DNA of 64,000 nucleotides from an uncultured Desulfobacteraceae bacterium (GTDB lineage Bacteria > Desulfobacterota > Desulfobacteria > Desulfobacterales > UBA2174), in the NCBI GenBank assembly GCA_937982505.1, contig CALJLV010000066.1, positions 4,819 through 68,818 of the forward strand, read 5' to 3'. Numbering within the stretch: the first letter of the stretch is position 1; every line of letters begins with the position of its first letter. Shown one piece after another: positions 26,703 through 50,641 of this stretch. A model generated the notes under the pieces. The model worked only from the letters and a program-made list of their open reading frames with translations. It did not search any database and was not told the origin of the DNA. The translations under genes were made by a program, and so were the position numbers.

Positions 26703-27322
26703 AAACGGCCCTCCTCCCGCTGCTGCTGGTGATCCTGGCCGAGGTGGCGGCTACGCCGCTGCTGCCCGAGGCCCCCGCGGGGCGCATGGCCGCCTTGGGC
26801 GGCCTGCGCATTCTGGAGGCCCTGGGGATGCTGCGCTGGGTCCACCGCTCCAGAGCCGGGCTGGCGGCCATCGGCCTCCAGCCCGGATCCATCGTCCCGG
26901 GGTTGAGGGTCGGCTCTCTGGGGGCGCTGATCTTCGGCCTGGCGGCATTTGGGAGCGGCTGGATCGCCCATTCCGTTTTCGGCCTCGAGGCAATGGCCCT
27001 CATCCGGGTCCACCTGCCGGCAGCGCCGGCCCTGGCAGGCATCTACTTCATGGTGGCGGGCGTGATCGGCCCCATCACCGAGGAGATCTTCTTTCGCGGG
27101 CTTCTCTACGGCGCGCTGCGGCGCTGGGGAACAGGCATCGCCGTGGGGGGTTCCACGGCCGTTTTTGTCCTGGCCCATGCGGGGCCCGGGTTTCCGCTGA
27201 CCCAGGCCATCGGGGGGCTCGTGTTTGCCCTGGCCCGGGAAAAGAGCCGCACCCTCACCGCCCCCATGACGATTCATGTCCTGGGGAACCTGGCGATCTA
27301 CGCGTTGTCACTGGCGGGCTGA
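26675..27322 (+). CDS. CPBP-family (CAAX-protease-like, Abi) intramembrane glutamic endopeptidase
   Basis: 215 aa and multi-TM. All three CPBP motifs are intact: ITEEIFFRG (EExxxR), FVLAHAG (FxxxH) and HVLGN (HxxxN). It overlaps the upstream gene by 28 nt. Confidence 0.8.
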   Translation: MEPTRILPLKTALLPLLLVILAEVAATPLLPEAPAGRMAALGGLRILEALGMLRWVHRSRAGLAAIGLQPGSIVPGLRVGSLGALIFGLAAFGSGWIAHSVFGLEAMALIRVHLPAAPALAGIYFMVAGVIGPITEEIFFRGLLYGALRRWGTGIAVGGSTAVFVLAHAGPGFPLTQAIGGLVFALAREKSRTLTAPMTIHVLGNLAIYALSLAG

Positions 27323-28846
27323 CCCGCCGGCAGCCCAAGGCACTCCCCCCAGGGGCTCAATCCCCTCTTCGCCTTCCTCCAGTCCCACGATGTATTTTTT
27401 GACGGTGCGCCGATCGAGGCTGGTGCGCCGGGCCACCTCCTCGAAGGTGCCGTGGCGTCGGTAAAGCAGTGTGCAGTAGCCGGCCACAAGGTCCTGGCTG
27501 GTGATGGTCCCCTGGGTGATGCCTTCGGCCAGGCGCCGCTCCAGATCGGCCGCCGGAGGCAGGTCCCCGGCATAGCTGGAGCGCAGCAGGACCCGCCGCA
27601 CGCACTGCTCCAGTTCGCGCACGTTTCCCGGCCAGGCATAGTCCAGGCCCAGTTCGCGCTCGGCCGTCTCGCGCACCAGCGCCGCCAGCTCCGGCGAAGG
27701 CCGGCTCAGCATCCGCTCCAGGGTGAAGGCGATCAGGTCGTCCAGTTCTCCGGGATCCTCGGCGACGCGCTGGCGCAGGGGAGGCACGGTGATGGTGTCC
27801 GAGCACAGGCGGTAATAAAAGTCGTCCCGGAACAGACCGCGATGGCGCAGTTCAGCCATGGGACGATTGGTGGCGGCGATCACCCGGCCCTGGAAGCGGC
27901 TCGGTTCGTGGCTCCCCACCGGCGTGAAGATCCTTTCCTGAAGGACCTGGAGCAGCTTGATCTGGATGTGGGCCGGCACCTCGCCGATTTCGTCCAGCAG
28001 GATGGCCCCGTTGGGACTGCAGCGGTCCAGGACCCCGCTGTAGTGTTTCACCGCGCCGGTGAAGGATCCCTTCTTGTGGCCGAACAGCTCGGATTCGATG
28101 AGGGTCTCGGGAAACTGGGAAAGATTGAGGGACACGAAGCTGCGGGTGAAGCTCTCCTCGAAGCAGCGCTTCTTCTCGTTGAAGGGGATGAACCCCGAGC
28201 GGCCGATGGCCATGGCGGCCGCCCCTTTGCCGGTGCCGGTCTCGCCCAGCAGGAGGGTGGAGAAATCCTCCATGCGGTTCCACAGGTAGCGGTCGTAGAC
28301 ATCCAGGTTGTGGGTGAAGACGTTTTCCCACAACTGGCGCCGCAGCCGCTGCATGGCCGGGCTGCGCCCCACCAGGTGGCGGAAGATGAAAAAATAGGCC
28401 CGCCGCAACTGATAGCTCAGGGCGAAGTAGCGGCGGGTGTCAGCCTCCGAAAAGCCGCGCCGGGCCATCAGACGATAGGCTTCGGGGGCAAAGGGGACCT
28501 TGGCGGGCGTCTCTCCGGCCTGGATCTGGTCGATGATCAACTGGTCGAATTTCTTGCGCAGTCCGTAAAAGAACTCGAAGAGAAAGGCCGCCCGCACCAG
28601 ACGCCGGTCCTCGCCTTCATAACGGCTTTCGTCGGCCCGGTTCTCGGCCTCCAGCACCGCGATGCGCCGCGCCACGGCCTCGGTGGCCGCGGCGGTGCGC
28701 TCGACCCGGGTGGCGTCGGGGTAGAGGCCGGCGATCTTCAGTTCGATCTCCTCGCGTTCCCGGCCGAAGGGATTGGCCACCCCGGCCTGGTAGACCAGCT
28801 GGAAAAAGTCGCGCTCCGCGCCGGTGAGTTTCGGCTGCCGTTCCAT
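27308..28846 (-). CDS. Sigma-54-dependent transcriptional activator (bacterial enhancer-binding protein) with an unrecognised N-terminal domain
   Basis: The AAA+ core has Walker A (GETGTGKG), a GAFTGA-type loop (GSFTGA) and Walker B (ILLDEIGE). The C-terminal HTH is FEEVARRTSLDRRTVKKYI. Start chosen at the ATG at 28846 (MERQPKLTG...). Confidence 0.85.
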   Translation of the reverse strand: MERQPKLTGAERDFFQLVYQAGVANPFGREREEIELKIAGLYPDATRVERTAAATEAVARRIAVLEAENRADESRYEGEDRRLVRAAFLFEFFYGLRKKFDQLIIDQIQAGETPAKVPFAPEAYRLMARRGFSEADTRRYFALSYQLRRAYFFIFRHLVGRSPAMQRLRRQLWENVFTHNLDVYDRYLWNRMEDFSTLLLGETGTGKGAAAMAIGRSGFIPFNEKKRCFEESFTRSFVSLNLSQFPETLIESELFGHKKGSFTGAVKHYSGVLDRCSPNGAILLDEIGEVPAHIQIKLLQVLQERIFTPVGSHEPSRFQGRVIAATNRPMAELRHRGLFRDDFYYRLCSDTITVPPLRQRVAEDPGELDDLIAFTLERMLSRPSPELAALVRETAERELGLDYAWPGNVRELEQCVRRVLLRSSYAGDLPPAADLERRLAEGITQGTITSQDLVAGYCTLLYRRHGTFEEVARRTSLDRRTVKKYIVGLEEGEEGIEPLGGVPWAAGGSARQ

Positions 28847-28971: not shown

Positions 28972-28986
28972 TGGCACAAAGGTTGA
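28972..28986 (+). promoter_or_regulatory. Sigma-54 (-24/-12) promoter candidate facing the megasynthase gene
   Basis: TGGCAC-aaagg-TTGA, against the consensus TGGCAC-N5-TTGC. That is one mismatch in the -12 element. It lies about 140 nt upstream of the ATG at 29129 and is divergent from the sigma-54 activator gene. Confidence 0.45.
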
Positions 28987-29006
28987 ATGGTTTTGGGCCG
29001 TTCATC

Positions 29007-29060
29007 GGTCCAATAGGTCCTATACGACTTATAGGTCTTATTGGTCGTATAAGACTTATA
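29007..29060. repeat. Six tandem 9-bp repeats (consensus GGTCYTATA) in an AT-rich island
   Basis: Read directly: GGTCCAATA GGTCCTATA CGACTTATA GGTCTTATT GGTCGTATA AGACTTATA. They lie between the sigma-54-like promoter and the megasynthase RBS. Confidence 0.7.
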
Positions 29061-29128
29061 AAAACCTCGATTTTTTGAAAACCCGGCAAAACCTCAACCC
29101 CATCGCCGCAACAGGAGCCGACACGCCC

Positions 29129-32100
29129 ATGTTCATACGCCTTATCCCCGCCAAGTTCCCGCTCATGGTTTACAACCCGCCGGCCGTGTCCGCCGTCGAT
29201 TACCTGTCCGCGGTGCACCGCGCCGGGGCCCTCCCGGTGCTGGACACCGAATTCCTCGATACGGCCAGCGTGTTGGCCGCCGTGGCCGAACTCTCGGGCC
29301 GGCGGGTCGTCTTCGGGATGCGGCTCATGGCCCACCAGCGGGATTTGCTGGCGCGGATGCGCCAAGCGTCACCCAAGGGGCTCGACACCGTCGTGCTGGC
29401 CTATCGCCGCCCCGAGGAGCTGAAGGATCTCGATCTGGCCGCATCGCCCTGGCACCGGTTGATCGAAGTGCGCGACCTGGAGCTGGAGACGCTGCTCCGC
29501 CCTCTTCACCCCCATGGCCTCGTGGTGCGCGGCCACGAAGCCCCGGGCCGGGTGGCAGCGGTGTCGAGCTTCATTCTGATGCAGGCCTACCTGGGGGCCG
29601 GCGGCTGGCCGGTGGTGGTCCATGGCGGGGTGGGGTGGTTTACCGCCGCCGGTCTGTTGGCCGCCGGGGCCAGCGGCCTGGTCCTGGACGACCAGCTCTA
29701 TCTTTGCACCGAGAGCCCCCTGGCGCCCGGCTTCAAGGCGCGCATGGCCCGCCTCGAGGAAAAGGACACCGTGATCGTGGACACCGGCAGCGAGGGGCCC
29801 TGCCGCGTCTTCGCCCAGCTCGGCACCCGGGTGGTCAAGGAGTTGAAAGCCATGGAAGCCGAAGCGGCCGAGAATCCCGAGGCCGCCGCCCGGCTGCAGG
29901 AGGCCTTGATCGCGCAAATCACCCCTCTGGACGACCCGGCCGCGGACCCGGCCCAGAGTCTTTTCCCCCTGGGGCAGGACGCCGTCCTGGCCAAATATTT
30001 CGCCGGCCGGGGCGAGGATCTGCAGCAGGTCATCGAGAACTTTCTGATCGATACCGGCGCCCGCCTGGCCGACATCGACGACCACGACCCCCTGGCGGCC
30101 GACAGCCCTCTGGCCCGCTGCCACGGCACGCGCTATCCCATCGTCCAGGGGCCCATGGCCAACGTGAGCGACAAGGGGGCCTTCGCCCGGGCCGTGCTGG
30201 AAGCCGGGGCCCTGCCGTTTTTGGCCATGGGGAGCCTGCCGCCCCACCTGTCCGAGGCCATGCTGGCCAACGAAACCGAGGGGCTGGCGCGTTTTGGCGC
30301 CGGGCTCATCGGCATCGAGGCCCTGAACCACGGCCTGCCGGAACACTTGGAACAGGTGCGCCGCCACCGGGTCCCCTTCGCCCTCATCGCCGGCGGCGTG
30401 CCGGCCCAGGTGCGGGCCCTGGAGGCCGACGGGATCGCCACCTACCTGCACACCCCGTCGCTAGCCATGCTGGAGAACGCCATCGCCGGCGGGTGTCGCC
30501 GTTTCGTTTTCGAAGGGGCCGAGGCCGGGGGGCACGTGGGACACCTGTCGAGCCTGGTGCTCTGGGAATTGGCCACGGCCCGCCTGTCCGCCCAGACGGA
30601 CGCGGTTCTGGCCGAGCAGACGCTGATCTTCGCCGGCGGCATCGGCACGGCCTTCGGGTCGCATTTCGTCTCCGGGCTGGCCAGCCACCTGTCCCGGCGG
30701 GGGGCCAAGATCGGCATCCAGGTGGGCAGCGCCTACCTGTTTACCGAGGAGATCGTGGCCACCGGCGCCATCACGGCCCTCTACCAGAAAGTAGTGTGCG
30801 ACGAGCGCTGCACCCTGGTGATGGGGCGCACGGTGGGGCTGGCGGCCCGCACCGTGCCCACGCCGTTTTCCCGGCGCATCGTGGCCGAGGAGTACCGCCG
30901 CCTGCGGGAAAAGATGCCCCTGACGGCTCGCAAGGAAGCCTTCGAGCGGGACAACATCGGGGCCCTGCTCATCGGGGCCAAGGCCTTCTGCCCCGATTTC
31001 GAGCGCCTCGGCAAGGCTGCCGGGGAGGCCTGCCTGACCTATTTCGAGGAAGAAGACCAGTACCAGCGGGGCAATTTCATGGTGGGCGAGGCCCTGGCCT
31101 TTGCCGCGGCCCCCTACGCCATCGCCGATCTTCACGCGCGGCTCATGGGAGGCAAGCAGGACCTCGCCGACCGGCTCAACCGGTTGGAGCTGGCCACGGC
31201 CCCCGACGGGCAGCTCAACGACGAGATCGCCGTGGTGGGCATGGGCTGCATCCTGCCCGAGGCCGCCGATCCCGGGTCCCTGTGGCGCCTGATCCTCGAT
31301 CGCCGGGGCGCCATCGGCCCCATGCCCGCCGAGCGCCTCGATCCCGACCTCTACCACGACCCCGACCGTTCGGCTCCCGACAAGTCCTACAGCCGCATCG
31401 CCGGGGTGGTGGACGATTTCGGCTTCGACGGCGACCGCTTCGGCTACACGCCGGAAAAGGCGGCTCGCCTGAGCCGCAGCCAGCAGATGGTGCTCCAGGC
31501 CGCCTACCAGGCCGTGGCCGATGCCGGCCTGCTGGATGCCGAGGACCACCTCTTTCAGGCGCTGAGGGCGCGCACCTCGGTGATCGTGGGCAGCTGCCTG
31601 GGCAACGAACTGAGCAGCGCTCTGCACCTCAAGTACGCCCTGCCGGAAATCCGCGCCCTGCTGGAACAGGTCGACGCTTTCCGGGACTTGTCGCCCGATG
31701 AGCGGCAGGCCCTGGTGGACGCCTTGCGCCAGGGGCTTTCCAACGGCAGCCCCTACGAGCCGGTGCACGGGGTGGCCCTCAACATGGAAGCGGCCCGCAT
31801 CGCCCATCACCTGGGCGCCACCGGCCGCTCCTATGCGGTGGACGCGGCCTGCGCCACCTCCCTGGCGGCCCTGGACTGCGGGGTCAAGGAGCTAGCCACC
31901 GGCCTGTGCGACCTGGCGGTGGTGGGCGGGGTCAACACCAACCTGGCCCCGGAATCCTTCGTGGGGTTTTGCAAGATGGGGGCCCTGTCGGCCACCGGTT
32001 CCTTCCCCTTCGACGAGCGGGCCGACGGTTTCGTCCTGGGTGAGGGAGCGGCGGTGGTGGTGCTCAAGCGCTTTCGCGACGCCCGGCGCGACGGGGACCG

Positions 32101-35100
32101 GATCTACGGCATCATCCGGGCCGTGGGCAGCGGCAGCGACGGCAAGGGCAAGGCCATTGCCGCGCCCAGTGCCAAGGGGCAGGCCATGACCCTCAAACGC
32201 TGCCTGGAGGGGGCCCGGCGGCCGGTGGACCCGGCCGATGTGGGCTTCATCGAGGCCCATGGCACCGGCACCCGCATGGGGGACCTGGTGGAGCTGGAAA
32301 CCCTCAAAAAGGTCTACGGCGGGGAGAAGCCCACCGGGATCAGTTCCATCAAGAGCCAGATCGGCCACCTTCTCGGCGGGGCCGGCATGGCCGGACTGAT
32401 CAAGGCCCTGCTGGCCCTGACCCATCGCACCCTGCCGCCCAACGGCGGTTTCCAACGGCTCGGAGCCAAGCACGACCTGTCCGGCAGCGGGCTGTTCATC
32501 GTGGCGGACGCGGCGCCCTGGGAGGCCCCCGACGGGAAGCCGCGCCTGGCGGCGGTGAGCGCCTACGGGTTCGGCGGGATCAACTATCATCTCGTGGTGG
32601 CCGAGGACAGCGCCGCCGCCCGGCCCCTGCCGCGACGGATCTTCGCCGATCCCGGCTTCGATCCGGATGAAGGGCGCATCGTGGTCTGCGGCCTCGGCAC
32701 GGTACTGCCGGGCGCCGCCGACGTGGACGGTTTCTGGCAAAGGCTTGGCCAGGGGGCGCCCCGGCTGCGGCCCATGCCGGCCGAACGCTTCGACAACCGG
32801 GCCTATGCCGCCGAGCCGGCCGACAGCCCCGCGCACATCCCCATGGTGTCGGCCGGCATCGTGGACGACTATCGCTTCGACCACGCCCGCTTCCGCATCC
32901 CGCCGGCGGCGGCCCGGTTCATCGACCGGGCCCAGCAGTTCGCCCTGGACGCCGCCGGCCAGGCCATTGCCGCCGCGGGGCTCGATCCCCGGCTGGAGAC
33001 GGGCAACCGGGTGGCGGTGATTCTCGGCACCCTGGCGGGTGAAAAGTACGTGGAGAACATCCTGCGCACCCGGATTCCGCTGCTCGAGCGGCTCATCCGC
33101 CAGGCCGACGGGGTCGATCCCCGGGCGGCCGCCGCCATCGCCGCGCAGCTGGCCGAGCGCATGCGCAGCCGGTACCTGCCCAACACCGAGGACACCATCC
33201 CCGGCCTGCTGTCCAACATCGTCAGCGCCCGGGCGAGCAAGCACTTCGGCTTAAACGGGGCCAATTTCACCGTGGACGCCTCCTGCGCCTCGGCCACCGT
33301 GGCGGTGGACCTGGCCATCCGGGGGCTGCAGACCGGCGACTACGAGGCGGCCATCGCCGGCGGGGTGGACTGCAACCTCCTGCCGGGCACGCTTTTGGCC
33401 TTCAAGCGCCTGGGGCTCATCAGCGACGGCGAATGCCGCATCTTCGACCACCAGGCCAAGGGGTACGTGATGAGCGAGGGGGCCGCGGTGCTGGTACTCG
33501 CCACCCTGGGCTACGCCCGGCGCCACGACCTGCCGGTGCTGGCCGAGATCTCGGCCATGGGCTTCGACGCCAGCGCCCCGGCCCATCTCCTCTCGCCGTC
33601 GCCGGAGGCTTACAGCGAGGCCATGCGGCGTTGCTACAACCAGGTGCCGGTGCTCCCGGCCGACGTGGCCCACCTGGACGTCTTCGGCGTGGCCAACCCC
33701 TTCTTCGATGCCCTCGAGGCCCATGCCGCGGCGCAGATCTTTCCCCGCCCGGTGGGCTTCGGCAACGTCAAGACCGAATTCGGCTACTTCAAGGCGGCCA
33801 ACCCGGCGGTGGTCCTGGCCAAACTGGCCCTCATGGCCAGCCGGCGCCGGCTCCTGCCCTTCTTCGGCCACCGGCCCGAGACCACCATCGTGGAAAAGGA
33901 CGCCGTCCTCGTGGCCCGGCGGCAAATCGAGGACATCCCTCCCGGCCGCCCCATCCACCTGGCCGCCAACGTCAACGGCATCGGCGGCAACCACGGCCAC
34001 GTGCTGGTTTCCACCCTGCCGGCCCACCTGGCGCCGGCGACCCAATCGGTAGCCCATCCACCGGATTCCGTCGCCGTCGGCGCCTGGCAGCCGGTGGAAA
34101 ACGGCCTGGCGATCCTGTTCTCCGGCCAGGGGGCCCAGTACCCGGGCATGATGGCGGACATCTACCGCGCTCGCCCCGAGGTGCGCGCCGCGATGGACCG
34201 GGGCGAGACGATCTTTGCCGCCCGCCGCGGCCGCTCGCTGCTGGAGATGATGTTCGATCCCCGGGGGGCCGAGGCGCTGAACCGCACCGAGACCACCCAG
34301 CCGGCGGTGTTTCTGGCCGGGGCGGCCCTCTGGGACCTGCTGGCCGCCCGGGGCCTGCGGCCGGATTATCTGGTGGGCCACAGCCTCGGGGAGATCACCG
34401 CCTTGTACGCCGCCGGGGCGCTGGCCTTCGAGGATGCCATGGCCCTGGTGATCGAGCGGGGACGGCTGATGCAGCTGGCCGCCGAACGCCACCCGGGAAA
34501 GATCATGGTGGTGTTCGAGGACGCCGCGCAGGTGGCGGAACGGATCCGGGCGGCCGGGGTGGCGGATGTCCGGGTGACCAACAAGAACAGCCGGCGCCAG
34601 ACGGCGGTCTGCGGGCCGAGGGAGGCCATGGAGGCTTTCGGCCGTTATCTGAAGACCCAGGGGGTGGTGGGCAAGGTCCTGCCCCTTTCCGGGGCCTTCC
34701 ATACCCCGCTGATGGCCGAGGCGGCCACGGGCCTGGAGCAGTTTCTGGCGGGGATCGCGCTGCGCCCCCAGGGGCTGGCGCGGGTGGTGGCCAACGCGAC
34801 CGGGACACCGTACCCCGAAGATCCGGCCGCGGCCAAGACCCTGCTGGTGCGCCAGATCGTCTCGCCGGTGGAATTCGTGGCGTCCGTCGAAGGCCTGCAC
34901 CGGGCCGGTTGCCGCGCCTTGGTGGAAGTCGGGCCGGGCCGCCTGCTGGCGAACCTGGTCAAGGACATCCCCCTGGAGGCGGTGGATTCCTGGCCGCTCA
35001 TCGACCCGAAGGCCGGCGCCGCGGCGAGCCTGGCGAAGGCCTTGGAGCGCCTGGCCAGGGAGGACCGCATCCGCCCCCTGCCCGCGGCCGCCGCGCCGGC

Positions 35101-38100
35101 GCCGGCCGCGGCGCCGTTGGAGACCCCGCCGGCGCCCGTGGGCGAAGGGGATCCCGGCTTCCAGGCCTTTCTGGCCCAAAATTCGGACCGGGTGCGGCTG
35201 CTGCTGGAGGCCGAGTATGAACGTCATCGGCGGGAGCAGGCCCTCACCGATCTGGAGCGCTTCGGCTTCTGCGGCCAGCCCATCGTCATCGCCGGGGCCT
35301 CGGTGGGCCTTCCGGGCACGGGCAACAAGGTCTTCAACGACAACAACTTCGACAAGCTGCTGGCCGGCCGCAACTTCATCGAACCGCTGACCCGGGACGA
35401 AAAGGAGCGCATCCTGGACATGAACATCACCCGGGTCTTCAAGGAGGCCGACGGGTCGGCGCGCCTGGTGAACATCACGCGCATCGAGGAGGTGATCCAG
35501 CTCGCCGGCAAGCTGGGCTACTTCAACCTCAAGAGCGAGTACGGCATCGAGGCCGACTACGACATCACCATCGCCCTGTCGATCGCCGCCGGCATCGAGG
35601 CCCTCCACGACGCCCGCATCCCGCTGGTGCAGCAGTTCCGCGACACCTCCTCGGGAGCCCAGATCCCCGACGGCTACGGGCTTCCGGCCGAGATGCAGGG
35701 CACCACCGGGGTGATCCTCACCAGCCTCTTTCCCGGCTTCGAGACCCTCATCGACCAGATGAACAACTATTACTACAACAAGTTCTACGTCAAACCGTAC
35801 AAGGACCTGGAGAAGATCTACTACCACCTCATGGAGAGCGTGCGCGACGAGGAGATCAAGGAGCAGATCACCGACTGGTTCTTCAAGATCAAGGAGCGGC
35901 GCAAGCGCTACGGCAACTACAAGTTCAACCGCAACCTGCTCTTCGACGTGGTCCCCCTGGGATCGGCCCACTTCGCCCAGCTGATCCGGGCCAAGGGGCC
36001 CAACATGCAGATGAGCGGGGCCTGCGCCTCCACCACCCAGGCCATCGGCGTGGCCGAGGACTGGATCCGCACCGGCCGCTGCGAGCGGGTGGTCATCATC
36101 GGCGGCGAGGCGGCCACCAGCCCGGTGCAAAGCCCCTGGATCGCCTCGGGTTTCCTCGCCATGGGGGCGGCCACGGTGAAGAACGTGGTGGAGGAGGCGG
36201 CCAAGCCTTTCGACGCCGAAAGAAACGGGACCATCCTGGGCAGCGGGGCGGTGGGCCTGGTGGTGGAGCGGGCCGACACGGTGGCGGCCCGGGGCCTGGC
36301 CGGCCAGGCCGAGATCCTGGGCACCCGCATCGGCAACAGCGCCTACCACGGCACGCGCATCGACGTGGCCCATGTGGCCGGCGAGATGCAGCGTTTCGTG
36401 GCGGATGTCGAGCGGCGCCACGGCCTGCGCCCGGCCGACTACGCCCCGCAAATGGTGTTCATGAGCCACGAGACCTTCACCCCGGCCCGGGGCGGCAGCG
36501 CCGAGGCCGAGGTCGAGGCCCTGCGCCGGACCTTCCCGGACGATTACCGGCAGATCGTCATCACCAACACCAAGGGCTTCACCGGCCACACTCTGGGGGC
36601 GGCCATCGAGGATGCCGTCCTGGTCAAGGCCCTGCAGCAGCGCCGGGTGCCGCCCATCGCCAACCTGAACCGGGTGCCCGAGGCCTTCGCCGACCTGAAG
36701 TTTTCCACCGGCCAGACCGGCGACTTCCAATACGGACTGCATTTTTCCGCCGGCTTCGGCTCCCACTTCGCCTTCCTGATGCTGCGGCGCATCGAGGAGA
36801 AGGCCGCCGCCGGCAACCCGGTCTACACTCGGTGGCTGCGACGGGTCACCGGGCTGCCAGACCCGGTGCCGGTGGTCTCCAACCACACCCTGGTGGTGGA
36901 AGGCGGGCCGCCGCCGCCCGCCCGCCCGCGGCCGGCGGCCGAAGCGGCCCCGGCGAAGGCGGAACCGGCGCCTGCGGCGCCATCCAGGGCCGCCGCAGCG
37001 CAAGCCCCGCCCACTGCGCCGGAGGCCGGCCAGGACGTGGTGGCGGCGGTGCAGCGGATCATCGCCGAGCAGACCGGATATACGGTGGACATGCTGGATG
37101 CCGGCCTGGACCTGGAGGCGGACCTGGGCATCGACACGGTCAAGCAGGTGGAGACCTTCGGCCGCATCAGCCGGCACTTCGAGCTGGCGGTGCCCGAAGA
37201 CCTGCGCCTAGCCGAGTTGAACACCATCGACAAGATCGCCGGCTACATCCGGTTGCAGCTGGGCGGTGCCGCGGCGGTGCCGGCTGAAGGGGAGACGGCC
37301 GTCGCGGTGGCTGCCGAGGATGCCGTGCAAAGTGAAGCGGCGCCGGTCGATGGCGGCACCCCGGCGGTTTTGCGCTTCGAACCCCGGGTGACAGTACTGG
37401 AAGATCTCCCGCCGACGGTGGCGGGAGCCCTCGCCGATCGCAAGCTGCTGGTCACCTGCGACCGTCATGGCCTCTGGCAGCGGGTGGCGACCCGGCTGGG
37501 GCAGGCCGGCGCCCGCCTCGTGACCCTGGGGCAGGGGGGAGCCCTCGATTACGGCTGCGATTTTCTCGATGCGGCGGAAACCGCCGCGGTCGTCGACCGG
37601 GCGCTGGCGGATCATCCCGACCTCAACGGGTTGGTGCACCTCATGCCGGTGGACGCCTTCCTGGACGGCGGCAGCGGGGAGAGCGCGGCGGAAATCGCCG
37701 TGGCGGTCAAGTCGTTCTTTGCCGCCCTCCAGGTGCTCCAGCCGCGCCTGGTCGAAGACGGCCTGGTGGCCGCGGTGAGCTTCAACTCGGTGGTCTTCGC
37801 CTATGGGCGGGAGGACCGAGCGGTCTATCCGGCCTTTGCCGGCATGGCCGGTCTGCTCAAGACGGTGGCCCGGGAGATTCCCACGGCGCGGGTCAAGGTG
37901 GTGGACCTGGCGGCCGATGATGCGGCGGCGATCCTGGACCAAGCGGCCGAGGCCCTGGCGGTCGAAATGGGCGCTTCGGATCGGCGCGTGGAGGTCGGCT
38001 ACTCGAACGGCCGGCGCTTCGGTCTCTGCCTGCTGCCGGCGGCGCCGGCCGGCGACGGCGCGCTCATCGCCGACGGCGACACGCTGCTGGTCACCGGCGG

Positions 38101-39835
38101 GGCCCGGGGGATCGCCTGCGCCATTCTCCAGCGCCTGGCGGAGCGCTGGCGCGGCGAACTGTCGATTTTCGGGCGCAGCGAGATCGGGCCGGAAGATCCG
38201 GAGCTGGCGGCGGCCGGGGACGAGGCGGCGATGATTTCCATCCTGCGCCGGCGCCATCCGGAGGCCAAGCCGGTGGACCTCAGGCGCCTGGCGGCCATGG
38301 GGCTGGCGGCCCGGCAGTCCCGGGACAACCTGGAGAAACTGCGCCAGGCCGGGGTCCGGGTGCGCTACCGGACCGTGGACGTCACCGACGCCGAAGCGGT
38401 GGCCAAGGCCCTGGAGGACGAGCCGAAGATCGACGTCCTGATCCATGCCGCCGGCCTGGAGGAGAGCCAGCCGCTGGCCAAAAAGAGCTTGTCTCAATTT
38501 ACCCGGGTTTTCGACACCAAGGCGGCCGGGATGAAGCATTTGCTCCAGGCGCTGGAGAATCACCGCCTGCGCAGCGTCATCGGTTTTTCCTCGGTCACCG
38601 CTCGCCTGGGCAACGCCGGCCAGGCCGACTACACCGCGGCCAACGACATGCTGGGGCGCATGCTCCAGCGTTTTCAGCAACATCACCCGGAAACCGTCTG
38701 CAAGGCCCTGGCCTGGACCGCCTGGGACGGCGCCGGCATGGCCGCCCGCGAAACGGTGCGCCGGGTGCTCTCCGAGCGAGGGCTGACGTTTCTGCCCCTG
38801 GCCCGGGGGGTGGCCTTCTTCATCGACGAGCTGGCGGACGCGACAGCGCCCGAAGCGGTCTTCACCGGCCTGGACCGGACCATGGACCCCGACGGCCTGC
38901 TGGACGGGCCGGCGCCCTTCATCGACCGCCAGGTGAGACGGACCGCCCGGGAAGCGGTCTTCCAGCGCACCCTGGAGTTGAATCGTGACCGCTTCCTGGA
39001 CGATCACACCCGGGCCGGGGTGCCGATTTTTCTCGGGGCCACGGGCATCGAGGCCATGGCCGAGGCAGCGGTGCTGCACGACGGCCGGGGCCGGGTGGCG
39101 GTGGCGCTGAGCGATTTTCACATCCCTTACGGGATCAAGCTGCTCAAGGGGCGGCCCAAACCCATCGAGATCAGCGCCTGCCAAGATGGGGACAATGCTT
39201 ACCGCTGCGCCATCGATTCCTACTTCGTGGATCCTACCGGCCGCCGCACGGGGGAGGCCAAGCGGCACTTCGAGGGCCGTTTCGAGCTGGCCGAGCGCTG
39301 GCCCCGGGCGCCGCGGGTCCAATGGCCCGATCTGCCACGGCCGGCGGCCCCCGAGGACGTCCAGGCCCTGCTCTACCATCCCCGGCGTCTGTTCATGGAC
39401 GGGCTCTTTCGCACCGTCACCGCCGCGGACGGCTTCGACGGCCAGCGCCTGCTGGTGCGCATCGCCCACCCCGGGCCGCGCGAGTTTTTCGCCGGCGTGA
39501 GCGCGCCGCGCTTCGCCACCGACGTTCAGCTCATCGACGCCATGTTCCAGACCGGCGGCATGCTCGAGGTGCTCACCAGCGGGGACATCGTGCTGCCGTA
39601 CAACATCGGCCGCCTGCGCTGGTACGGCCCCCCCCGGCGCGGCGTGACCTATCGCTGCCTCACCGAGCGGATCGGCAGCGGGGAAAAAACGATCACCTAC
39701 CGGCTGACCCTGGCCGGTGAAGACGATCGGGCCGTGGTGGCGATCGAGGGCTTCGAGATGGTCAAGGTGGACCGACTGCGGCCCGAGGACCGCATCGCCG
39801 AGCGGCTGGTGGGGGATTTACTCAAGGCATCCTGA
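29129..39835 (+). CDS. Single-polypeptide PUFA-synthase/type I PKS-like megasynthase. Domain order: ER-like (degenerate) - ER (NMO/PfaD-like) - KS - KS-like (His-less) - AT - KS - ACP - KR - DH
   Basis: ATG at 29129 with an AGGAG RBS. ER: YPIVQGPMANVS and GAEAGGH. KS1: DAACATS, EAHGTGT, IGHLLGGAG. KS-like: DASCAS without the two His. AT: GHSLGE, AFHTP. KS3: GACAST, SHETFTP, FTGHTLGAA. ACP: DLGIDTVKQVE. KR: VTGGARGIA ... YTAAN. DH: LDDHTRAGVPIFLGATG and DAMFQTGG. Confidence 0.9.
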   Translation: MFIRLIPAKFPLMVYNPPAVSAVDYLSAVHRAGALPVLDTEFLDTASVLAAVAELSGRRVVFGMRLMAHQRDLLARMRQASPKGLDTVVLAYRRPEELKDLDLAASPWHRLIEVRDLELETLLRPLHPHGLVVRGHEAPGRVAAVSSFILMQAYLGAGGWPVVVHGGVGWFTAAGLLAAGASGLVLDDQLYLCTESPLAPGFKARMARLEEKDTVIVDTGSEGPCRVFAQLGTRVVKELKAMEAEAAENPEAAARLQEALIAQITPLDDPAADPAQSLFPLGQDAVLAKYFAGRGEDLQQVIENFLIDTGARLADIDDHDPLAADSPLARCHGTRYPIVQGPMANVSDKGAFARAVLEAGALPFLAMGSLPPHLSEAMLANETEGLARFGAGLIGIEALNHGLPEHLEQVRRHRVPFALIAGGVPAQVRALEADGIATYLHTPSLAMLENAIAGGCRRFVFEGAEAGGHVGHLSSLVLWELATARLSAQTDAVLAEQTLIFAGGIGTAFGSHFVSGLASHLSRRGAKIGIQVGSAYLFTEEIVATGAITALYQKVVCDERCTLVMGRTVGLAARTVPTPFSRRIVAEEYRRLREKMPLTARKEAFERDNIGALLIGAKAFCPDFERLGKAAGEACLTYFEEEDQYQRGNFMVGEALAFAAAPYAIADLHARLMGGKQDLADRLNRLELATAPDGQLNDEIAVVGMGCILPEAADPGSLWRLILDRRGAIGPMPAERLDPDLYHDPDRSAPDKSYSRIAGVVDDFGFDGDRFGYTPEKAARLSRSQQMVLQAAYQAVADAGLLDAEDHLFQALRARTSVIVGSCLGNELSSALHLKYALPEIRALLEQVDAFRDLSPDERQALVDALRQGLSNGSPYEPVHGVALNMEAARIAHHLGATGRSYAVDAACATSLAALDCGVKELATGLCDLAVVGGVNTNLAPESFVGFCKMGALSATGSFPFDERADGFVLGEGAAVVVLKRFRDARRDGDRIYGIIRAVGSGSDGKGKAIAAPSAKGQAMTLKRCLEGARRPVDPADVGFIEAHGTGTRMGDLVELETLKKVYGGEKPTGISSIKSQIGHLLGGAGMAGLIKALLALTHRTLPPNGGFQRLGAKHDLSGSGLFIVADAAPWEAPDGKPRLAAVSAYGFGGINYHLVVAEDSAAARPLPRRIFADPGFDPDEGRIVVCGLGTVLPGAADVDGFWQRLGQGAPRLRPMPAERFDNRAYAAEPADSPAHIPMVSAGIVDDYRFDHARFRIPPAAARFIDRAQQFALDAAGQAIAAAGLDPRLETGNRVAVILGTLAGEKYVENILRTRIPLLERLIRQADGVDPRAAAAIAAQLAERMRSRYLPNTEDTIPGLLSNIVSARASKHFGLNGANFTVDASCASATVAVDLAIRGLQTGDYEAAIAGGVDCNLLPGTLLAFKRLGLISDGECRIFDHQAKGYVMSEGAAVLVLATLGYARRHDLPVLAEISAMGFDASAPAHLLSPSPEAYSEAMRRCYNQVPVLPADVAHLDVFGVANPFFDALEAHAAAQIFPRPVGFGNVKTEFGYFKAANPAVVLAKLALMASRRRLLPFFGHRPETTIVEKDAVLVARRQIEDIPPGRPIHLAANVNGIGGNHGHVLVSTLPAHLAPATQSVAHPPDSVAVGAWQPVENGLAILFSGQGAQYPGMMADIYRARPEVRAAMDRGETIFAARRGRSLLEMMFDPRGAEALNRTETTQPAVFLAGAALWDLLAARGLRPDYLVGHSLGEITALYAAGALAFEDAMALVIERGRLMQLAAERHPGKIMVVFEDAAQVAERIRAAGVADVRVTNKNSRRQTAVCGPREAMEAFGRYLKTQGVVGKVLPLSGAFHTPLMAEAATGLEQFLAGIALRPQGLARVVANATGTPYPEDPAAAKTLLVRQIVSPVEFVASVEGLHRAGCRALVEVGPGRLLANLVKDIPLEAVDSWPLIDPKAGAAASLAKALERLAREDRIRPLPAAAAPAPAAAPLETPPAPVGEGDPGFQAFLAQNSDRVRLLLEAEYERHRREQALTDLERFGFCGQPIVIAGASVGLPGTGNKVFNDNNFDKLLAGRNFIEPLTRDEKERILDMNITRVFKEADGSARLVNITRIEEVIQLAGKLGYFNLKSEYGIEADYDITIALSIAAGIEALHDARIPLVQQFRDTSSGAQIPDGYGLPAEMQGTTGVILTSLFPGFETLIDQMNNYYYNKFYVKPYKDLEKIYYHLMESVRDEEIKEQITDWFFKIKERRKRYGNYKFNRNLLFDVVPLGSAHFAQLIRAKGPNMQMSGACASTTQAIGVAEDWIRTGRCERVVIIGGEAATSPVQSPWIASGFLAMGAATVKNVVEEAAKPFDAERNGTILGSGAVGLVVERADTVAARGLAGQAEILGTRIGNSAYHGTRIDVAHVAGEMQRFVADVERRHGLRPADYAPQMVFMSHETFTPARGGSAEAEVEALRRTFPDDYRQIVITNTKGFTGHTLGAAIEDAVLVKALQQRRVPPIANLNRVPEAFADLKFSTGQTGDFQYGLHFSAGFGSHFAFLMLRRIEEKAAAGNPVYTRWLRRVTGLPDPVPVVSNHTLVVEGGPPPPARPRPAAEAAPAKAEPAPAAPSRAAAAQAPPTAPEAGQDVVAAVQRIIAEQTGYTVDMLDAGLDLEADLGIDTVKQVETFGRISRHFELAVPEDLRLAELNTIDKIAGYIRLQLGGAAAVPAEGETAVAVAAEDAVQSEAAPVDGGTPAVLRFEPRVTVLEDLPPTVAGALADRKLLVTCDRHGLWQRVATRLGQAGARLVTLGQGGALDYGCDFLDAAETAAVVDRALADHPDLNGLVHLMPVDAFLDGGSGESAAEIAVAVKSFFAALQVLQPRLVEDGLVAAVSFNSVVFAYGREDRAVYPAFAGMAGLLKTVAREIPTARVKVVDLAADDAAAILDQAAEALAVEMGASDRRVEVGYSNGRRFGLCLLPAAPAGDGALIADGDTLLVTGGARGIACAILQRLAERWRGELSIFGRSEIGPEDPELAAAGDEAAMISILRRRHPEAKPVDLRRLAAMGLAARQSRDNLEKLRQAGVRVRYRTVDVTDAEAVAKALEDEPKIDVLIHAAGLEESQPLAKKSLSQFTRVFDTKAAGMKHLLQALENHRLRSVIGFSSVTARLGNAGQADYTAANDMLGRMLQRFQQHHPETVCKALAWTAWDGAGMAARETVRRVLSERGLTFLPLARGVAFFIDELADATAPEAVFTGLDRTMDPDGLLDGPAPFIDRQVRRTAREAVFQRTLELNRDRFLDDHTRAGVPIFLGATGIEAMAEAAVLHDGRGRVAVALSDFHIPYGIKLLKGRPKPIEISACQDGDNAYRCAIDSYFVDPTGRRTGEAKRHFEGRFELAERWPRAPRVQWPDLPRPAAPEDVQALLYHPRRLFMDGLFRTVTAADGFDGQRLLVRIAHPGPREFFAGVSAPRFATDVQLIDAMFQTGGMLEVLTSGDIVLPYNIGRLRWYGPPRRGVTYRCLTERIGSGEKTITYRLTLAGEDDRAVVAIEGFEMVKVDRLRPEDRIAERLVGDLLKAS

Positions 39836-47157: not shown

Positions 47158-47733
47158 TCAGGTCCGCGCCAATAGGATCAGAAAGTTGGGCCCCAGATCA
47201 TCCAGACGGGTCTGGAGAAACCCATGGGGCGCCAGCCAAGCGGCGATTTCCTCTGGCGACTGGAGCTGCGCGACCGGCGGCCCCCAGGGTTGATCTTCCT
47301 TTTTGACGCTGAGCACCGCCAGCCGGCCGTCGCTTTTCAACACCCGGCGCACCTCGCCGAAGATGGCCGCCGCGTCCCGCTTGAGCGCCAGCACGTGCCA
47401 CACCGCAGCCAGCAGGCAGACGTCCACGCTGGCGCCGGCGAGCGGCAGGCCCCGGCGCATGTCGGCCAAAAGGGGGCAGAGGTTGGCGATGCGCCGCAGG
47501 GCCGCCTCGTCGGCCATGGACCGGAGCACCGGAGCCCACTTGTCCAGACCGTAGACCCGCCCCCGGGGGCCCACCCGCAGCGCCGCGGCCAGGGCCCAGT
47601 CCCCGGGACCGCAGCCCAGATCCAGCAGGACATCCTCCGGCCGCAGGCCCAGGGCCGCAAAGACCGGGGCCGGATCCTGCATCCCGAAGCTGCTGGGCCC
47701 GTGGCGCGGCGTCTGTCTCGCATCGGCGGTCAT
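47158..47733 (-). CDS. Class I SAM-dependent methyltransferase
   Basis: Motif I is VLDLGCGPGDWA and the post-I acidic residue is in VYGLD. The ATG at 47733 overlaps the TetR stop (ATGA). Confidence 0.75.
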   Translation of the reverse strand: MTADARQTPRHGPSSFGMQDPAPVFAALGLRPEDVLLDLGCGPGDWALAAALRVGPRGRVYGLDKWAPVLRSMADEAALRRIANLCPLLADMRRGLPLAGASVDVCLLAAVWHVLALKRDAAAIFGEVRRVLKSDGRLAVLSVKKEDQPWGPPVAQLQSPEEIAAWLAPHGFLQTRLDDLGPNFLILLART

Positions 47734-48437
47734 CAGCCGTTTTGTCCTGGGCCGGGCCGGTAGTGTTCGATCTGGTCCAACACCGCCGCGGCGTACTGGT
47801 CCACCGTGATCTTTCGCCCGGCGTGCTTCCAGTGCTTGAGATACCAGTCCTGGAGCATGGCCTTGAGCAGACTGGCGCTCAGGCGGAAATCGCGCGCCGC
47901 GATGGCCCCGGCCTCGGCCGCCTGGCGCAGCAGATCCTCGAAGAGCCGCTCGGTGGCCAGCTCGCCCTCCAAGGTGCGGCGGCGCTCGGCCGGGGGCAGG
48001 CGGCGCGCCTCCATGTAGGCGAAAAAGAACCAGGGCTGCATGGCCTCGCTGAGGTACAGATGGGTGCGCACGGCGCAGCGCAGCCGTTCCAAGGGGTCCG
48101 AAGCCTGGGCCAGACGCTGCTCCAGAATGCGCCGGGTGACGCTGCGGCGCTGGTCCTGGAGCATGGCCAGCAGATCTTCCTTGGCGGGGAAATAGGCGTA
48201 GAGGGCACCCATGCTCATGCCGGTCTCGGCGCTCAGATCGCGCATGGTCATGGCCGCGAACCCCTTCTGGTTGGCGATCCTGAGGGCCGCGGCGAAGATC
48301 CGCTCCAGGTTGCGCACCACGGTGGCTTCCTTCTTGACGCGAAACGCCCCGGGGTGGCGCGCGAAGACCTCGCGGCACAGTTCGGCCTTGGACAGATCCA
48401 CCATTTTTTTGAATTCGCTGTAGCTCATGGCGGCCAT
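47733..48437 (-). CDS. TetR/AcrR-family transcriptional regulator
   Basis: N-terminal HTH: AAALRIANQKGFAAMTMRDLSAETGMSMGALYAYFPAKEDLL. Confidence 0.85.
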   Translation of the reverse strand: MAAMSYSEFKKMVDLSKAELCREVFARHPGAFRVKKEATVVRNLERIFAAALRIANQKGFAAMTMRDLSAETGMSMGALYAYFPAKEDLLAMLQDQRRSVTRRILEQRLAQASDPLERLRCAVRTHLYLSEAMQPWFFFAYMEARRLPPAERRRTLEGELATERLFEDLLRQAAEAGAIAARDFRLSASLLKAMLQDWYLKHWKHAGRKITVDQYAAAVLDQIEHYRPGPGQNG

Positions 48438-48487
48438 TCAACTCCGATCCGTCCGACGGGACGGTCCAACAGACCGCAAAATCCCCG

Positions 48488-49693: not shown

Positions 49694-49701
49694 GGAATCT
49701 C

Positions 49702-50394: not shown

Positions 50395-50485
50395 GGATCA
50401 GCCCGTGCAAAAGGATGGCCGCCGTGAGGGTCCAGCTTTGGTACTCAATGCTGCCTGTAGCCTTTGGGGAAAGGGTTTGTCAATC

Positions 50486-50511
50486 AAAAAGCGAGCGAAC
50501 GCTCGCTTTTT
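50486..50511. promoter_or_regulatory. Perfect 26-bp palindrome (candidate operator) in the divergent promoter region
   Basis: AAAAAGCGAGCG-AA-CGCTCGCTTTTT, with 12-bp perfect arms. It abuts the -35 of the etfB promoter candidate. Confidence 0.5.
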
Positions 50512-50512
50512 C

Positions 50513-50541
50513 TTGACAGGTCCGGGCCCTTGACCTATGGT
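50513..50541 (+). promoter_or_regulatory. Sigma-70-like promoter candidate for etfBA
   Basis: TTGACA (50513-18), a 17-nt spacer, then TATGGT (50536-41). Confidence 0.4.
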
Positions 50542-50641
50542 GCCGCCAGCGGTTTTCAGCCCTGCCGGGGGGATCGCTCACGCGCCCGGAGGGTCGGAGA
50601 CCTGGCGAATCTAGGGGATTGGAAGTCGCCATGCGCAGGCC

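What the first reader, a model, noticed from the sequence alone, without database searches (positions are those of the whole stretch)
29129..39835. All-in-one 3568-aa PUFA-synthase-like megasynthase with tandem N-terminal ER domains and three KS-type domains
In canonical Pfa systems, the enzymatic functions are spread over PfaA-D. Here they are fused in one ORF in an unusual order:
- A degenerate NMO/ER-like domain, with GHEAPGRV in place of the EAGGH loop.
- A canonical PfaD-like ER.
- A KS with the Cys-His-His triad.
- A KS-like partner.
- An AT.
- A second complete KS.
- A single ACP.
- A KR with its structural subdomain.
- A PKS-type DH (HxxxGxxxxP and DxxxQ motifs).

No FabA-type DH, thioesterase or PPTase is visible in the flanking genes. 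The gene faces a sigma-54 activator. The product cannot be predicted from sequence; a secondary lipid, an alkyl chain or a polyene are all possible. The architecture looks like an uncharacterised class of iterative FAS/PKS hybrid.
Basis: partly seen in the sequence, partly recalled or inferred. Interest (0 to 1): 0.7.

Follow-up and report, generated by a model that had tools for sequence, protein, structure and literature searches.

The report
Type S lipid megasynthase, threonine-type ACP
This is a real 3568-residue single-protein fatty-acid/polyketide-type factory of a class catalogued in 2011 but never characterised, and its carrier domain, like nearly all carriers of its wider family, has a threonine where the supposedly universal cofactor-bearing serine should be.

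Summary
The ORF 29129..39835 (+) is real, uninterrupted and collinear end to end with single-ORF homologues in about 20 Desulfobacterales-type genomes. The domain order is pseudoER-ER-KS-CLF-AT-KS-ACP-KR-DH.

This is not a new class. [quoted passage not shown] I found no characterised product in the papers I could search.

- The active ER is closer to FabK than to PfaD.
- The pseudo-ER/ER tandem is general. It also occurs at the Azotobacter ars loci, which encode the characterised synthase ArsA.
- The divergent sigma-54 activator and a sigma-54 promoter are conserved parts of the system.
- Relatives usually carry a PPTase gene directly downstream. This window has none.

New observation: the ACP has Thr2670 at the phosphopantetheine-serine position. 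In the family that shares the second KS, 395 of 404 ACP motifs have this Thr, encoded by all four ACN codons.

Most likely function: a sigma-54-controlled iterative synthase that makes a saturated long-chain acyl chain and is off-loaded in trans. The product itself is inferred, not shown.

The parts
27308..28846 (-). Divergent sigma-54 enhancer-binding activator. The likely start is ATG 28846, giving about 513 aa. It has Walker A GETGTGKG and a GSFTGA loop.
   Evidence: Pfam Sigma54_activat 5e-41. Sequence and start candidates. Homologous divergent activators in 14 of 23 loci, plus L081, L082 and L083.
28972..28987 (+). Sigma-54-type -24/-12 promoter element, TGGCACAAAGGTTGAA, 157 nt upstream of the ATG.
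   Evidence: The pattern TGG[CT]A[CT]-N4-6-T[TC]G[CA] occurs upstream of the synthase in the window and in 16 of 22 related loci. My rough estimate of the chance rate is about 0.02 per 400 nt. The element is identical in L081 while the flanking DNA diverges.
28988..29128 (+). Conserved leader of about 140 nt, with AT-rich repeats of 9-nt period (29004-29060) that can form a long hairpin. An AGGAG ribosome-binding site lies at about 29113.
   Evidence: MFE -34.3 kcal/mol, z -3.1. No Rfam match.
29129..39835 (+). Type S secondary-lipid megasynthase gene, 3568 aa plus stop.
29129..30103 (+). ER1, a FabK-fold pseudo-enoylreductase (aa 1-325). It has GHEAPGR141V in place of EAGGH and no QGPM motif.
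   Evidence: Pfam NMO 24.7 bits, below the cut-off. AF2 pLDDT 91.4. Foldseek TM 0.74-0.81 to FabK. The His position is R/W/K/L/F/Q in 77 of 79 loci.
30104..31198 (+). ER2, the active FabK-type FMN enoyl-ACP reductase (aa 326-690), with QGPMANVSD and EAGGH469VG.
   Evidence: (FabK TIGR03151, 82 bits).
31226..32605 (+). KS1, a PKS/Pfa-type ketosynthase (aa 700-1159) with the Cys905-His-His triad.
   Evidence: PDB 6riw 'ORF10' matches residues 698-1416 as one stretch.
32678..34015 (+). CLF-like KS partner (aa 1184-1629). It retains Cys1386 but lacks both catalytic His.
34106..34957 (+). Malonyl-type acyltransferase (aa 1660-1943) with GHS1752LGE and GAFH.
   Evidence: Pfam 9.5e-41. FabD TIGR00128, 190 bits. 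Motifs.
35282..36796 (+). KS3, a FabF-related ketosynthase (aa 2052-2556) with a divergent, insert-bearing N-terminal half and the Cys2299-His-His triad.
   Evidence: (the best PDB matches are FabF, over the C-terminal two thirds only).
37034..37264 (+). Single ACP (aa 2636-2712) with the motif DLEADLGIDT2670VKQVE. Thr (ACG, 37136-37138) occupies the phosphopantetheine-Ser position.
   Evidence: Pfam PP-binding 27.6-28.8 bits. Motif. PDB ACP alignments place their Ser on this Thr. Family statistics.
37367..38881 (+). Ketoreductase with an N-terminal structural subdomain (aa 2747-3251), with TGGARGI, K3131 and YTAAN.
   Evidence: (PfaA profile positions 1611-2354).
38915..39778 (+). PKS-type double-hotdog dehydratase (aa 3263-3550) with His3293 and D3470xxxQ.
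   Evidence: PKS_DH_N and PS-DH. Motif conservation.

Best explanation
The gene encodes a Type S 'secondary lipid synthase'. This is a self-contained, iterative type I FAS/PKS-like enzyme, transcribed from a sigma-54 promoter under the control of the divergently encoded enhancer-binding activator.

Inferred mechanism:
- The FabD-like AT loads malonyl units onto the single ACP.
- Two condensing systems extend the chain: the FabF-like KS3, and the PKS-type KS1 paired with its His-less CLF-like partner. They probably serve different chain-length ranges, as the two KS systems of Pfa synthases do.
- Every cycle can pass through KR, the PKS-type DH and the FabK-type ER2. There is no FabA-type dehydratase/isomerase. 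The product is therefore most likely a saturated, long straight acyl chain, by analogy with the C22-C26 chains of ArsA.
- ER1 is a catalytically dead FabK-fold domain. It most likely serves as the obligate dimer partner of ER2 inside one polypeptide, because FabK/PfaD-type ERs work as dimers.
- With no TE, the acyl chain stays on the ACP until a trans-acting enzyme takes it. A PlsC-type acyltransferase is encoded next to the system in Desulfobacter-type relatives.
- The carrier is unusual. Thr2670 replaces the phosphopantetheine Ser, and I infer that this Thr is what a dedicated PPTase modifies. In this genome that PPTase must be encoded outside the window.

Shown here: the ORF, the domains, the motifs, membership of Type S, conservation of the activator and promoter, the pseudo-ER fold, and the Thr motif statistics.

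Inferred: the product, the division of labour between the KS systems, ER1-ER2 pairing as the functional dimer, Thr modification, and the off-loading route.
For: - Architecture and identity with Type S.
- Catalytic motifs intact and conserved.
- No FabA or TE hits.
- ER2 is FabK-like and ER1 is a FabK-fold without His or motif I.
- The tandem-ER model has pTM 0.92, consistent with one rigid unit. PMC13311796 reports that ER domains act as dimers and proposes the motif III His as catalytic.
- Sigma-54 activator conserved in 14 of 23 loci, and the promoter in 17 of 23 upstream regions.
- PPTase directly downstream, in one case overlapping the stop codon, in L001, L002, L011, L082, L083 and HRM2.
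- PlsC-type acyltransferase beside the activator in 9 loci. Biotin carboxylase downstream in L009.
- ArsA, which shares the pseudoER-ER head, makes long saturated acyl chains that stay ACP-bound (PMC4824345, PMC6274091 and PMC13291983).
- Thr-ACP: all 46 ACP repeats of the window and its single-ORF homologues; 395 Thr against 9 Ser motifs in 140 family representatives; all four ACN codons used; rare natural Ser variants at the same site.
Against: - No member of Type S, or of the wider KS3 family, has a known product in the papers I could search.
- A DH or ER can be skipped in some cycles, as in Pfa, Hgl and zeamine synthases, so hydroxyl, keto or trans-ene groups are possible.
- The window holds no PPTase, acyltransferase or thioesterase, so activation and off-loading are unsupported locally.
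- To my knowledge, Ser-to-Thr ACP mutants are not substrates of ordinary PPTases, and no Thr-linked phosphopantetheine has been described. The Thr-ACP could therefore work in another way.
- The -12 element of the promoter reads TTGA rather than the consensus TTGC.
- Foldseek reports no query ranges and I could not inspect coordinates, so the ER1-ER2 interface geometry was not compared with the FabK or PfaD dimer.
Confidence: 0.6

Rival explanations
1. It has the same enzymology, but it is the organism's primary (housekeeping) fatty acid synthase feeding membrane phospholipids, not a 'secondary' lipid pathway.
For: - Shulse & Allen noted that D. autotrophicum HRM2 lacks fabA and fabZ, and suggested that Type S is its core FAS.
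- In 9 Desulfobacter-type loci the system sits beside a PlsC-type acyltransferase. The conserved upstream block there also holds parA/parB and an ispH-UbiA fusion, in 8 loci.
- Biotin carboxylase lies downstream in L009.
- The family is nearly universal among the Desulfobacterales genomes hit.
Against: - A dedicated sigma-54 activator and promoter suggest conditional expression.
- ACP number varies from 1 to 5, and the window has a single ACP, which is a low-throughput design.
- The window has none of the housekeeping neighbours.
- I could not test for the presence or absence of FAS II genes in this genome.
Confidence: 0.25
2. It makes a partly reduced product, such as a polyene, a hydroxy or keto lipid, or a PUFA-like chain, through programmed skipping of ER or DH.
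For: - Pfa relatives and Hgl- and zeamine-type synthases leave functional groups by skipping steps (literature summarised in PMC13291983).
- Two distinct KS systems could impose cycle-specific processing.
- The ACP-KR-DH region aligns to PfaA.
Against: - There is no FabA-type DH/isomerase, the domain type that makes cis double bonds in Pfa synthases (its role is from my own knowledge).
- A fully intact ER2 is fused in cis.
- The closest characterised relative by head module, ArsA, makes saturated chains.
Confidence: 0.12
3. The cis ACP is not a carrier at all, because Thr cannot be phosphopantetheinylated. The domain would then be structural or a docking element, and a separate Ser-type ACP would carry the chain. 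Alternatively, this copy with one ACP and no PPTase neighbour is a decaying gene.
For: - Thr occupies the canonical Ser site.
- No PPTase lies in the window.
- To my knowledge, ordinary PPTases do not accept Ser-to-Thr ACPs.
Against: - The ACPs occur in 1-6 tandem copies with Ala/Pro-rich linkers, like Pfa carriers.
- The motif is invariant with synonymous codon turnover.
- Natural Ser variants occur at the same position.
- A PPTase gene is adjacent in most relatives.
- No other ACP is encoded at the loci examined.
- The window gene has GC3 0.90, no frameshift, and every catalytic motif intact.
Confidence: 0.08
4. It is an assembly or frameshift artefact that fuses several genes.
For: MAG-derived relatives show breaks of this kind: L012 is split into several ORFs, and L017 contains a run of N.
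Against: - The ORF is uninterrupted, with uniform codon bias.
- It is collinear at 56% identity over 3560 residues with L001.
- The same single-ORF order occurs in 13 complete homologues and in 9 or more full-length representatives.
Confidence: 0.01

Closest known systems
Type S secondary lipid synthase of Desulfobacterium (Desulforapulum) autotrophicum HRM2, YP_002604438 (Shulse & Allen 2011, PMC3098273)
   Same: It has the same single-polypeptide order, ER-KS-CLF-AT-KS-ACPn-KR. The window protein aligns over its whole length with the protein of a D. autotrophicum MAG, L007: 48% identity over residues 1-2711 and 41% over the rest. The ACPs are Thr-type in both.
   Different: The window protein has one ACP. 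HRM2 is listed with three, and I counted four in L007. There is no adjacent PPTase gene here. The 2011 annotation listed one ER and no DH, whereas I find a pseudo-ER plus an ER, and a C-terminal PKS-type DH, in all members. No product is known for either.
ArsA type I fatty acid synthase of Azotobacter vinelandii (Type P; the related Types M and O have ER-KS-MAT-ACPn-KR plus a KS-AT-PPTase gene)
   Same: It shares the N-terminal pseudoER-ER tandem fused to a PKS-type KS (about 35% identity), the KR, the lack of a TE, and iterative use of malonyl-CoA. The ArsA product is a long saturated acyl chain that stays on the ACP and is handed on directly.
   Different: The ArsA order is KS-MAT-ACP-KR with the canonical Ser-type ACP motif LGIDSIKRVEI. 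It has no CLF-like domain and no FabF-like KS3 in the same protein. The ars operon is linked to type III PKS genes, and none is present here.
Type R synthases (catalogued as KS-MAT-'CLF'-ACP3-6-KR plus a PPTase; Koribacter, Solibacter, Elusimicrobium, Roseiflexus)
   Same: They share the AT-KS3-ACP(Thr)n-KR(-DH) module. KS3 identity is 40-45%, the DLG(I/V)DTVKQ(A/V)E motif is the same, and a PPTase is often adjacent.
   Different: Type R proteins have no ER head and no KS-CLF pair. The domain called 'CLF' in Type R is, by homology to KS3 here, a full Cys-His-His ketosynthase.
Canonical PfaABCD PUFA synthase
   Same: The KS-CLF didomain matches PDB 6riw 'ORF10'; I recall this entry as the PfaC KS-CLF of Moritella marina. 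ACP-KR-DH aligns to PfaA profile positions 1611-2354. The ER is an FMN TIM-barrel type.
   Different: There are no FabA-type DH domains. PfaA TIGR02813 scores 748.6, below its 1010 cut-off. The ER is nearer FabK than PfaD. There is one Thr-type ACP instead of 4-6 Ser-type ACPs. All functions sit in one chain, with AT before KS.

Membership tests
Type S secondary lipid synthase (Shulse & Allen 2011) | Single polypeptide with the order ER-KS-CLF-AT-KS-ACPn-KR | tested here: met
   Pfam and NCBIfam domain order. Table S1 entry for YP_002604438. The same order in 20 or more loci.
Type S secondary lipid synthase (Shulse & Allen 2011) | Full-length homology to the D. autotrophicum protein | tested here: met
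   L007, a MAG assigned to Desulforapulum autotrophicum, aligns at 48% over residues 1-2711 and 41% over 2641-3561. HRM2 itself was not available, so this is a proxy.
Type S secondary lipid synthase (Shulse & Allen 2011) | PPTase gene immediately downstream | tested here: not met
   The downstream gene is an NMT1_3 solute-binding protein. tblastn of the L001 and L002 PPTases against the window gives only chance hits. The PPTase is present in L001, L002, L011, L082, L083 and HRM2.
Canonical Pfa PUFA synthase | FabA-type dehydratase/isomerase domains (PfaC DH2) | tested here: not met
   No FabA or MaoC-type hit in the protein at E <= 0.01, and none in the window ORFs scanned.
Canonical Pfa PUFA synthase | PfaA family HMM (TIGR02813) at or above its curated cut-off | tested here: not met
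   748.6 bits against a cut-off of 1010.1.
Canonical Pfa PUFA synthase | Tandem ACPs with the LGIDS(I/L) phosphopantetheine motif | tested here: not met
   There is one ACP, and its motif is LGIDTVK.
Acyl carrier protein (PP-binding, PF00550) | Domain-level match to the family profile | tested here: met
   27.6-28.8 bits against a cut-off of 20.8. It aligns to solved ACPs.
Acyl carrier protein (PP-binding, PF00550) | Conserved Ser at the start of helix II that carries 4'-phosphopantetheine | tested here: not met
   Thr2670 (codon ACG, 37136-37138) aligns with the Ser of PigH, MupA-type, Aquifex and other ACPs. Whether the Thr is modified cannot be tested with these tools.
FabK/PfaD-type FMN enoyl-ACP reductase | Motif I (QGPM/APMxG) and the motif III xEAGGH catalytic His on a TIM-barrel fold | tested here: met
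   ER2 has QGPMANVSD and EAGGH469VG, invariant in the family. The FabK fold scores TM 0.85-0.87. ER1 has the fold but neither motif, so ER1 fails this test.
Sigma-54-dependent operon | A -24 GG / -12 GC promoter with correct spacing, and an adjacent bEBP with a GAFTGA loop | tested here: inconclusive
   The element is TGGCAC-N5-TTGA. The -24 half is perfect and the -12 half reads GA, not GC. It is conserved in 17 of 23 upstream regions. The activator has an AAA+ sigma-54 interaction domain and a GSFTGA variant loop. No transcription data exist.
ArsA-type (Type P) phenolic-lipid FAS | Linkage to type III PKS genes and the order ER-KS-MAT-ACP-KR | tested here: not met
   The order differs, and no chalcone-synthase-type gene appears among the window ORFs scanned.

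The most novel reading that the evidence does not exclude
The ACPs attached to the FabF-like KS3, in Type S, Type R and related synthases across many bacterial phyla and some Asgard archaeal MAGs, use threonine instead of the supposedly universal serine as the 4'-phosphopantetheine attachment residue. A co-encoded, specialised PPTase would install it. This would be an undescribed post-translational linkage (O-phosphopantetheinyl-threonine) that defines a large, unstudied branch of carrier-protein biochemistry. The window protein, with a single ACP and a single Thr, would be the simplest test substrate.
Probability: 0.4. Interest if true: 0.8.

Novelty: new member of a known kind. Interest (0 to 1): 0.5.

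Why it matters
Type S and Type R synthases are widespread: the KS3-ACP module has 755 cluster representatives at E <= 1e-30. Yet I found no product, physiological role or biochemistry for any of them in the papers searched.

In sulfate reducers they may be the main route to membrane acyl chains, or to a conditionally made lipid under sigma-54 control. Either would affect how lipid biomarkers from anoxic sediments are read.

The pseudoER-ER tandem offers a simple model for how dimer-dependent trans-type ERs were built into a single chain.

The Thr-for-Ser carrier motif, if it is modified, would overturn a textbook invariant of FAS, PKS and NRPS biochemistry. It would also explain why these clusters keep their own PPTase, and it predicts that heterologous expression with standard PPTases such as Sfp may fail.

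Tried and rejected
- A full-length homology search timed out.
- The word-indexed protein database returned only fragments of 1202 aa or less, so architectures had to be read from DNA loci and from the representative library.
- Exact-sequence look-ups of the synthase and of a neighbouring gene found nothing, so the source organism is not identified. The closest public relative is a MAG labelled Desulfobacteraceae bacterium (GCA_036353395.1), with 84% identity over the ER region and the same activator and promoter.
- Rfam has no match in the window.
- Literature searches for a Thr-type ACP found nothing relevant, by keywords and by the motif strings DTVKQ, LGIDT, GIDTVK and LGVDT. Subscription journals were not searched. 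The primary ArsA paper (PMC2242712) is not held, so the ArsA facts come from secondary sources.
- Readings I rejected: a canonical PUFA synthase (no FabA DH, below the PfaA cut-off); a PfaD-like ER (FabK is closer); a fused-gene artefact; a recent ER duplication (ER1 against ER2 gives only 26% identity, E 0.18).
- A strict link between Thr-type ACPs and an adjacent PPTase does not hold. The one Ser-variant locus (L084) lacks an adjacent PPTase, but so does this Thr-type window.
Full report
A stop-free ORF runs from 29075 (TTG) or 29129 (ATG) to 39835 on the + strand. Its GC3 is 0.90 against GC2 0.48. This marks it as the coding frame and sets aside the long antisense ORFs that a 68% G+C sequence throws up. 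The ATG at 29129 follows an AGGAG and gives an N-terminus that matches the homologues' start. Pfam and NCBIfam give this order: NMO/FabK-type ER twice, KS, a KS-like domain, AT, KS, PP-binding, KR, then PKS_DH_N and PS-DH. Every catalytic motif is conserved in 20 aligned homologues.

**It is one gene.** A scan of one genome per species with an alignment of the tandem-ER head returned 80 loci. I mapped the window's nine domains onto them and checked stop-to-stop ORFs. L001-L024 and L070 have the same order in one ORF, ER1-ER2-KS1-CLF-AT-KS3-ACP(1-5)-KR-DH. These are mostly Desulfobacteraceae, Desulfobacula, Desulfobacter, Desulfotignum, Desulforapulum autotrophicum, Desulfoluna and Desulfarculaceae. 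L001 is also 3568 aa with one ACP. It aligns with the window protein at 56% identity over residues 1-3560. An assembly artefact is excluded.

**It is not a new class.** Table S1 of Shulse & Allen 2011 lists D. autotrophicum HRM2 YP_002604438 as 'ER-KS-CLF-AT-KS-ACP3-KR', followed by a PPTase gene. That is their Type S, then known from a single genome. They gave no product. They speculated that it might be the core FAS, because HRM2 lacks fabA and fabZ. I found no later characterisation. A 2026 survey still names only heterocyst glycolipid chains, the Azotobacter phenolic-lipid chains and a few hybrids as known secondary lipids. The window therefore holds a new member of a catalogued but uncharacterised kind.

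**The ER head.**
- ER2 has the FMN motif I (QGPMANVSD) and motif III (EAGGH469), both invariant in the family.
- ER1 has neither. At the His position, 79 loci carry R, W, K, L, F or Q, and only two carry H. The Azotobacter ars loci have W there.
- The AlphaFold model of residues 1-690 is confident (pLDDT 89.3, pTM 0.92). The model of ER1 alone is too (pLDDT 91.4).
- Both find FabK as the best solved match. TM is 0.85-0.87 for the tandem and 0.74-0.81 for ER1. PfaD reaches only about 0.5. NCBIfam agrees, with FabK at 82 bits.
- ER1 and ER2 share only 26% identity (E 0.18), so the duplication is old.
- ER domains of this type act as dimers, and thraustochytrid ERb and ERc form a heterodimer (PMC13311796). 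I therefore infer that ER1 is the built-in, inactive dimer partner of ER2. I could not inspect the interface itself.
- The tandem is not peculiar to this protein. It heads every locus fetched, including the loci that encode the characterised ArsA.

**The condensing and processing domains.**
- KS1 is a PKS-type Cys-His-His ketosynthase. KS1 and its partner match PDB 6riw 'ORF10' as one stretch. I recall that entry as the PfaC KS-CLF didomain.
- The partner keeps the Cys in most members but never has the two His. I cannot explain why the Cys is retained.
- The AT is FabD-like, with GHSLGE and GAFH.
- KS3 is different. Its closest solved relatives are type II FabF enzymes, and only over its C-terminal two thirds. 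Its N-terminal half carries a conserved insert. It has a full triad.
- ACP-KR-DH aligns to PfaA profile positions 1611-2354. The DH has the His and the DxxxQ.
- No FabA-type domain, thioesterase or PPTase appears in the protein or among the ORFs I scanned in the window.

**The unexpected point is the carrier.**
- The single ACP reads DLEADLGIDT2670VKQVE (codon ACG, 37136-37138). Solved ACPs align their phosphopantetheine Ser exactly onto this Thr.
- This is not a sequencing error. All 46 ACP repeats of the window and its single-ORF homologues have it. So do 21 of 22 KS3-ACP fragments from other phyla.
- An exhaustive search with KS3+ACP found 755 cluster representatives at E <= 1e-30. Of the 140 new representatives I examined, 134 carry the Thr motif (395 copies) and 4 carry Ser (9 copies).
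- All four ACN codons are used, and the residue is always followed by V-K-Q. The Pfa/ArsA-type ACPs in the other loci are always S-I-K-R.
- One protein with the Type S architecture (P0220) has DLGIDSIKQVE. Ser and Thr therefore interchange at this position in nature.
- A PPTase gene lies directly downstream in L001, L002, L011, L082, L083 (where it overlaps the stop codon) and HRM2.
- I found no paper describing this motif or a Thr-linked phosphopantetheine. Only open-access text was searched.
- The most economical reading is that the Thr is the attachment site for a dedicated PPTase. That is an inference.

**Regulation and neighbours.**
- A divergent sigma-54 activator is present in 14 of 23 loci, and also in L081, L082 and L083.
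- TGGCACAAAGGTTGAA lies 157 nt upstream of the ATG. A like element occurs upstream of the synthase in 16 of 22 related loci, against roughly 0.02 expected per locus. It is identical in the 84%-identity relative L081, while the flanking DNA diverges.
- The activator has an AAA+ core and a GSFTGA loop.
- In 9 Desulfobacter-type loci a PlsC-type acyltransferase follows the activator. In L009 a biotin carboxylase follows the synthase.
- The window has none of these. Its neighbours are a giant LapA/LRR adhesin-like gene, a CAAX protease, a solute-binding protein, a hybrid kinase and a beta-oxidation cluster.

**Most likely function.** It is an iterative, malonyl-fed synthase whose full KR-DH-ER loop, with no isomerising DH, gives a saturated long acyl chain. 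This parallels ArsA, which shares the head module and makes C22-C26 chains that stay on the ACP. Release would be by a trans-acting acyltransferase or another partner. Expression would be under sigma-54 control. The main rival is the same chemistry serving as the housekeeping FAS. I could not test that without whole genomes. A partly reduced product and a non-carrier role for the Thr-ACP are less likely but not excluded.

**Verdict.** The gene is a new member of a known, uncharacterised kind. The conserved Thr at the carrier's cofactor site is a family-wide feature that deserves an experiment.

Noticed in passing
window 28988-29128 (repeats at 29004-29060): The synthase leader carries about six AT-rich repeats of 9-nt period (ATAGGTCNT-like) that fold into a long hairpin (MFE -34.3 kcal/mol, z -3.1). 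The leader is largely conserved in relative L081, but the window has an extra 22-nt block. There is no Rfam match. It may be a regulatory leader or a protein-binding array.
   Followed up: partly
window 32678-34015 (CLF-like domain, Cys1386): The His-less KS partner retains the active-site Cys (DASCAS) in 18 of 21 aligned proteins (the window and 17 homologues). Classical chain-length factors have lost this Cys. It may hold or transfer the acyl chain.
   Followed up: partly
window 11110-25212: A 3731-aa protein with LapA, LRR, TSP3 and beta-helix repeats looks like an adhesin. It is preceded by a TPR/Slam-like gene and a FecR-like gene, which may form a surface-protein export module.
   Followed up: no
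window 47733-63665: A beta-oxidation-type cluster: TetR, two acyl-CoA dehydrogenases, ETF, 3-hydroxyacyl-CoA dehydrogenase, DUF362 and HdrD-like CCG/Fe-S proteins. This is typical of fatty-acid-oxidising sulfate reducers.
   Followed up: no
L025 (Ca. Heimdallarchaeum aukensis, complete genome) and L040 (Promethearchaeota MAG): Asgard archaeal assemblies carry ER-ER-KS-AT and KS-AT-KS3-ACPn-KR genes. L025 has both a Thr-type and a Ser-type ACP motif. These are bacterial-type fatty-acyl megasynthases in archaea.
   Followed up: no
L006 7326-8213 (-), and equivalents in 8 other Desulfobacter-type loci: A PlsC-family acyltransferase (PF01553) is conserved next to the sigma-54 activator. The conserved upstream block also holds parA/parB and an ispH-UbiA fusion gene, in 8 loci. 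This hints that the product enters glycerolipids.
   Followed up: partly
L084 (P0220) compared with L082 and L083: The one Type S protein found with a Ser-type ACP has no adjacent PPTase, and its sigma-54 activator lies downstream. Thr-type relatives have the PPTase directly downstream, overlapping the stop codon in L083. This is a single case, and the Thr-type window also lacks the PPTase.
   Followed up: partly
L081 1-1762: In the closest relative (84% identity) the activator is followed by a TetR regulator and a MaoC-type hydratase/dehydratase. The window has a CAAX protease there instead.
   Followed up: no
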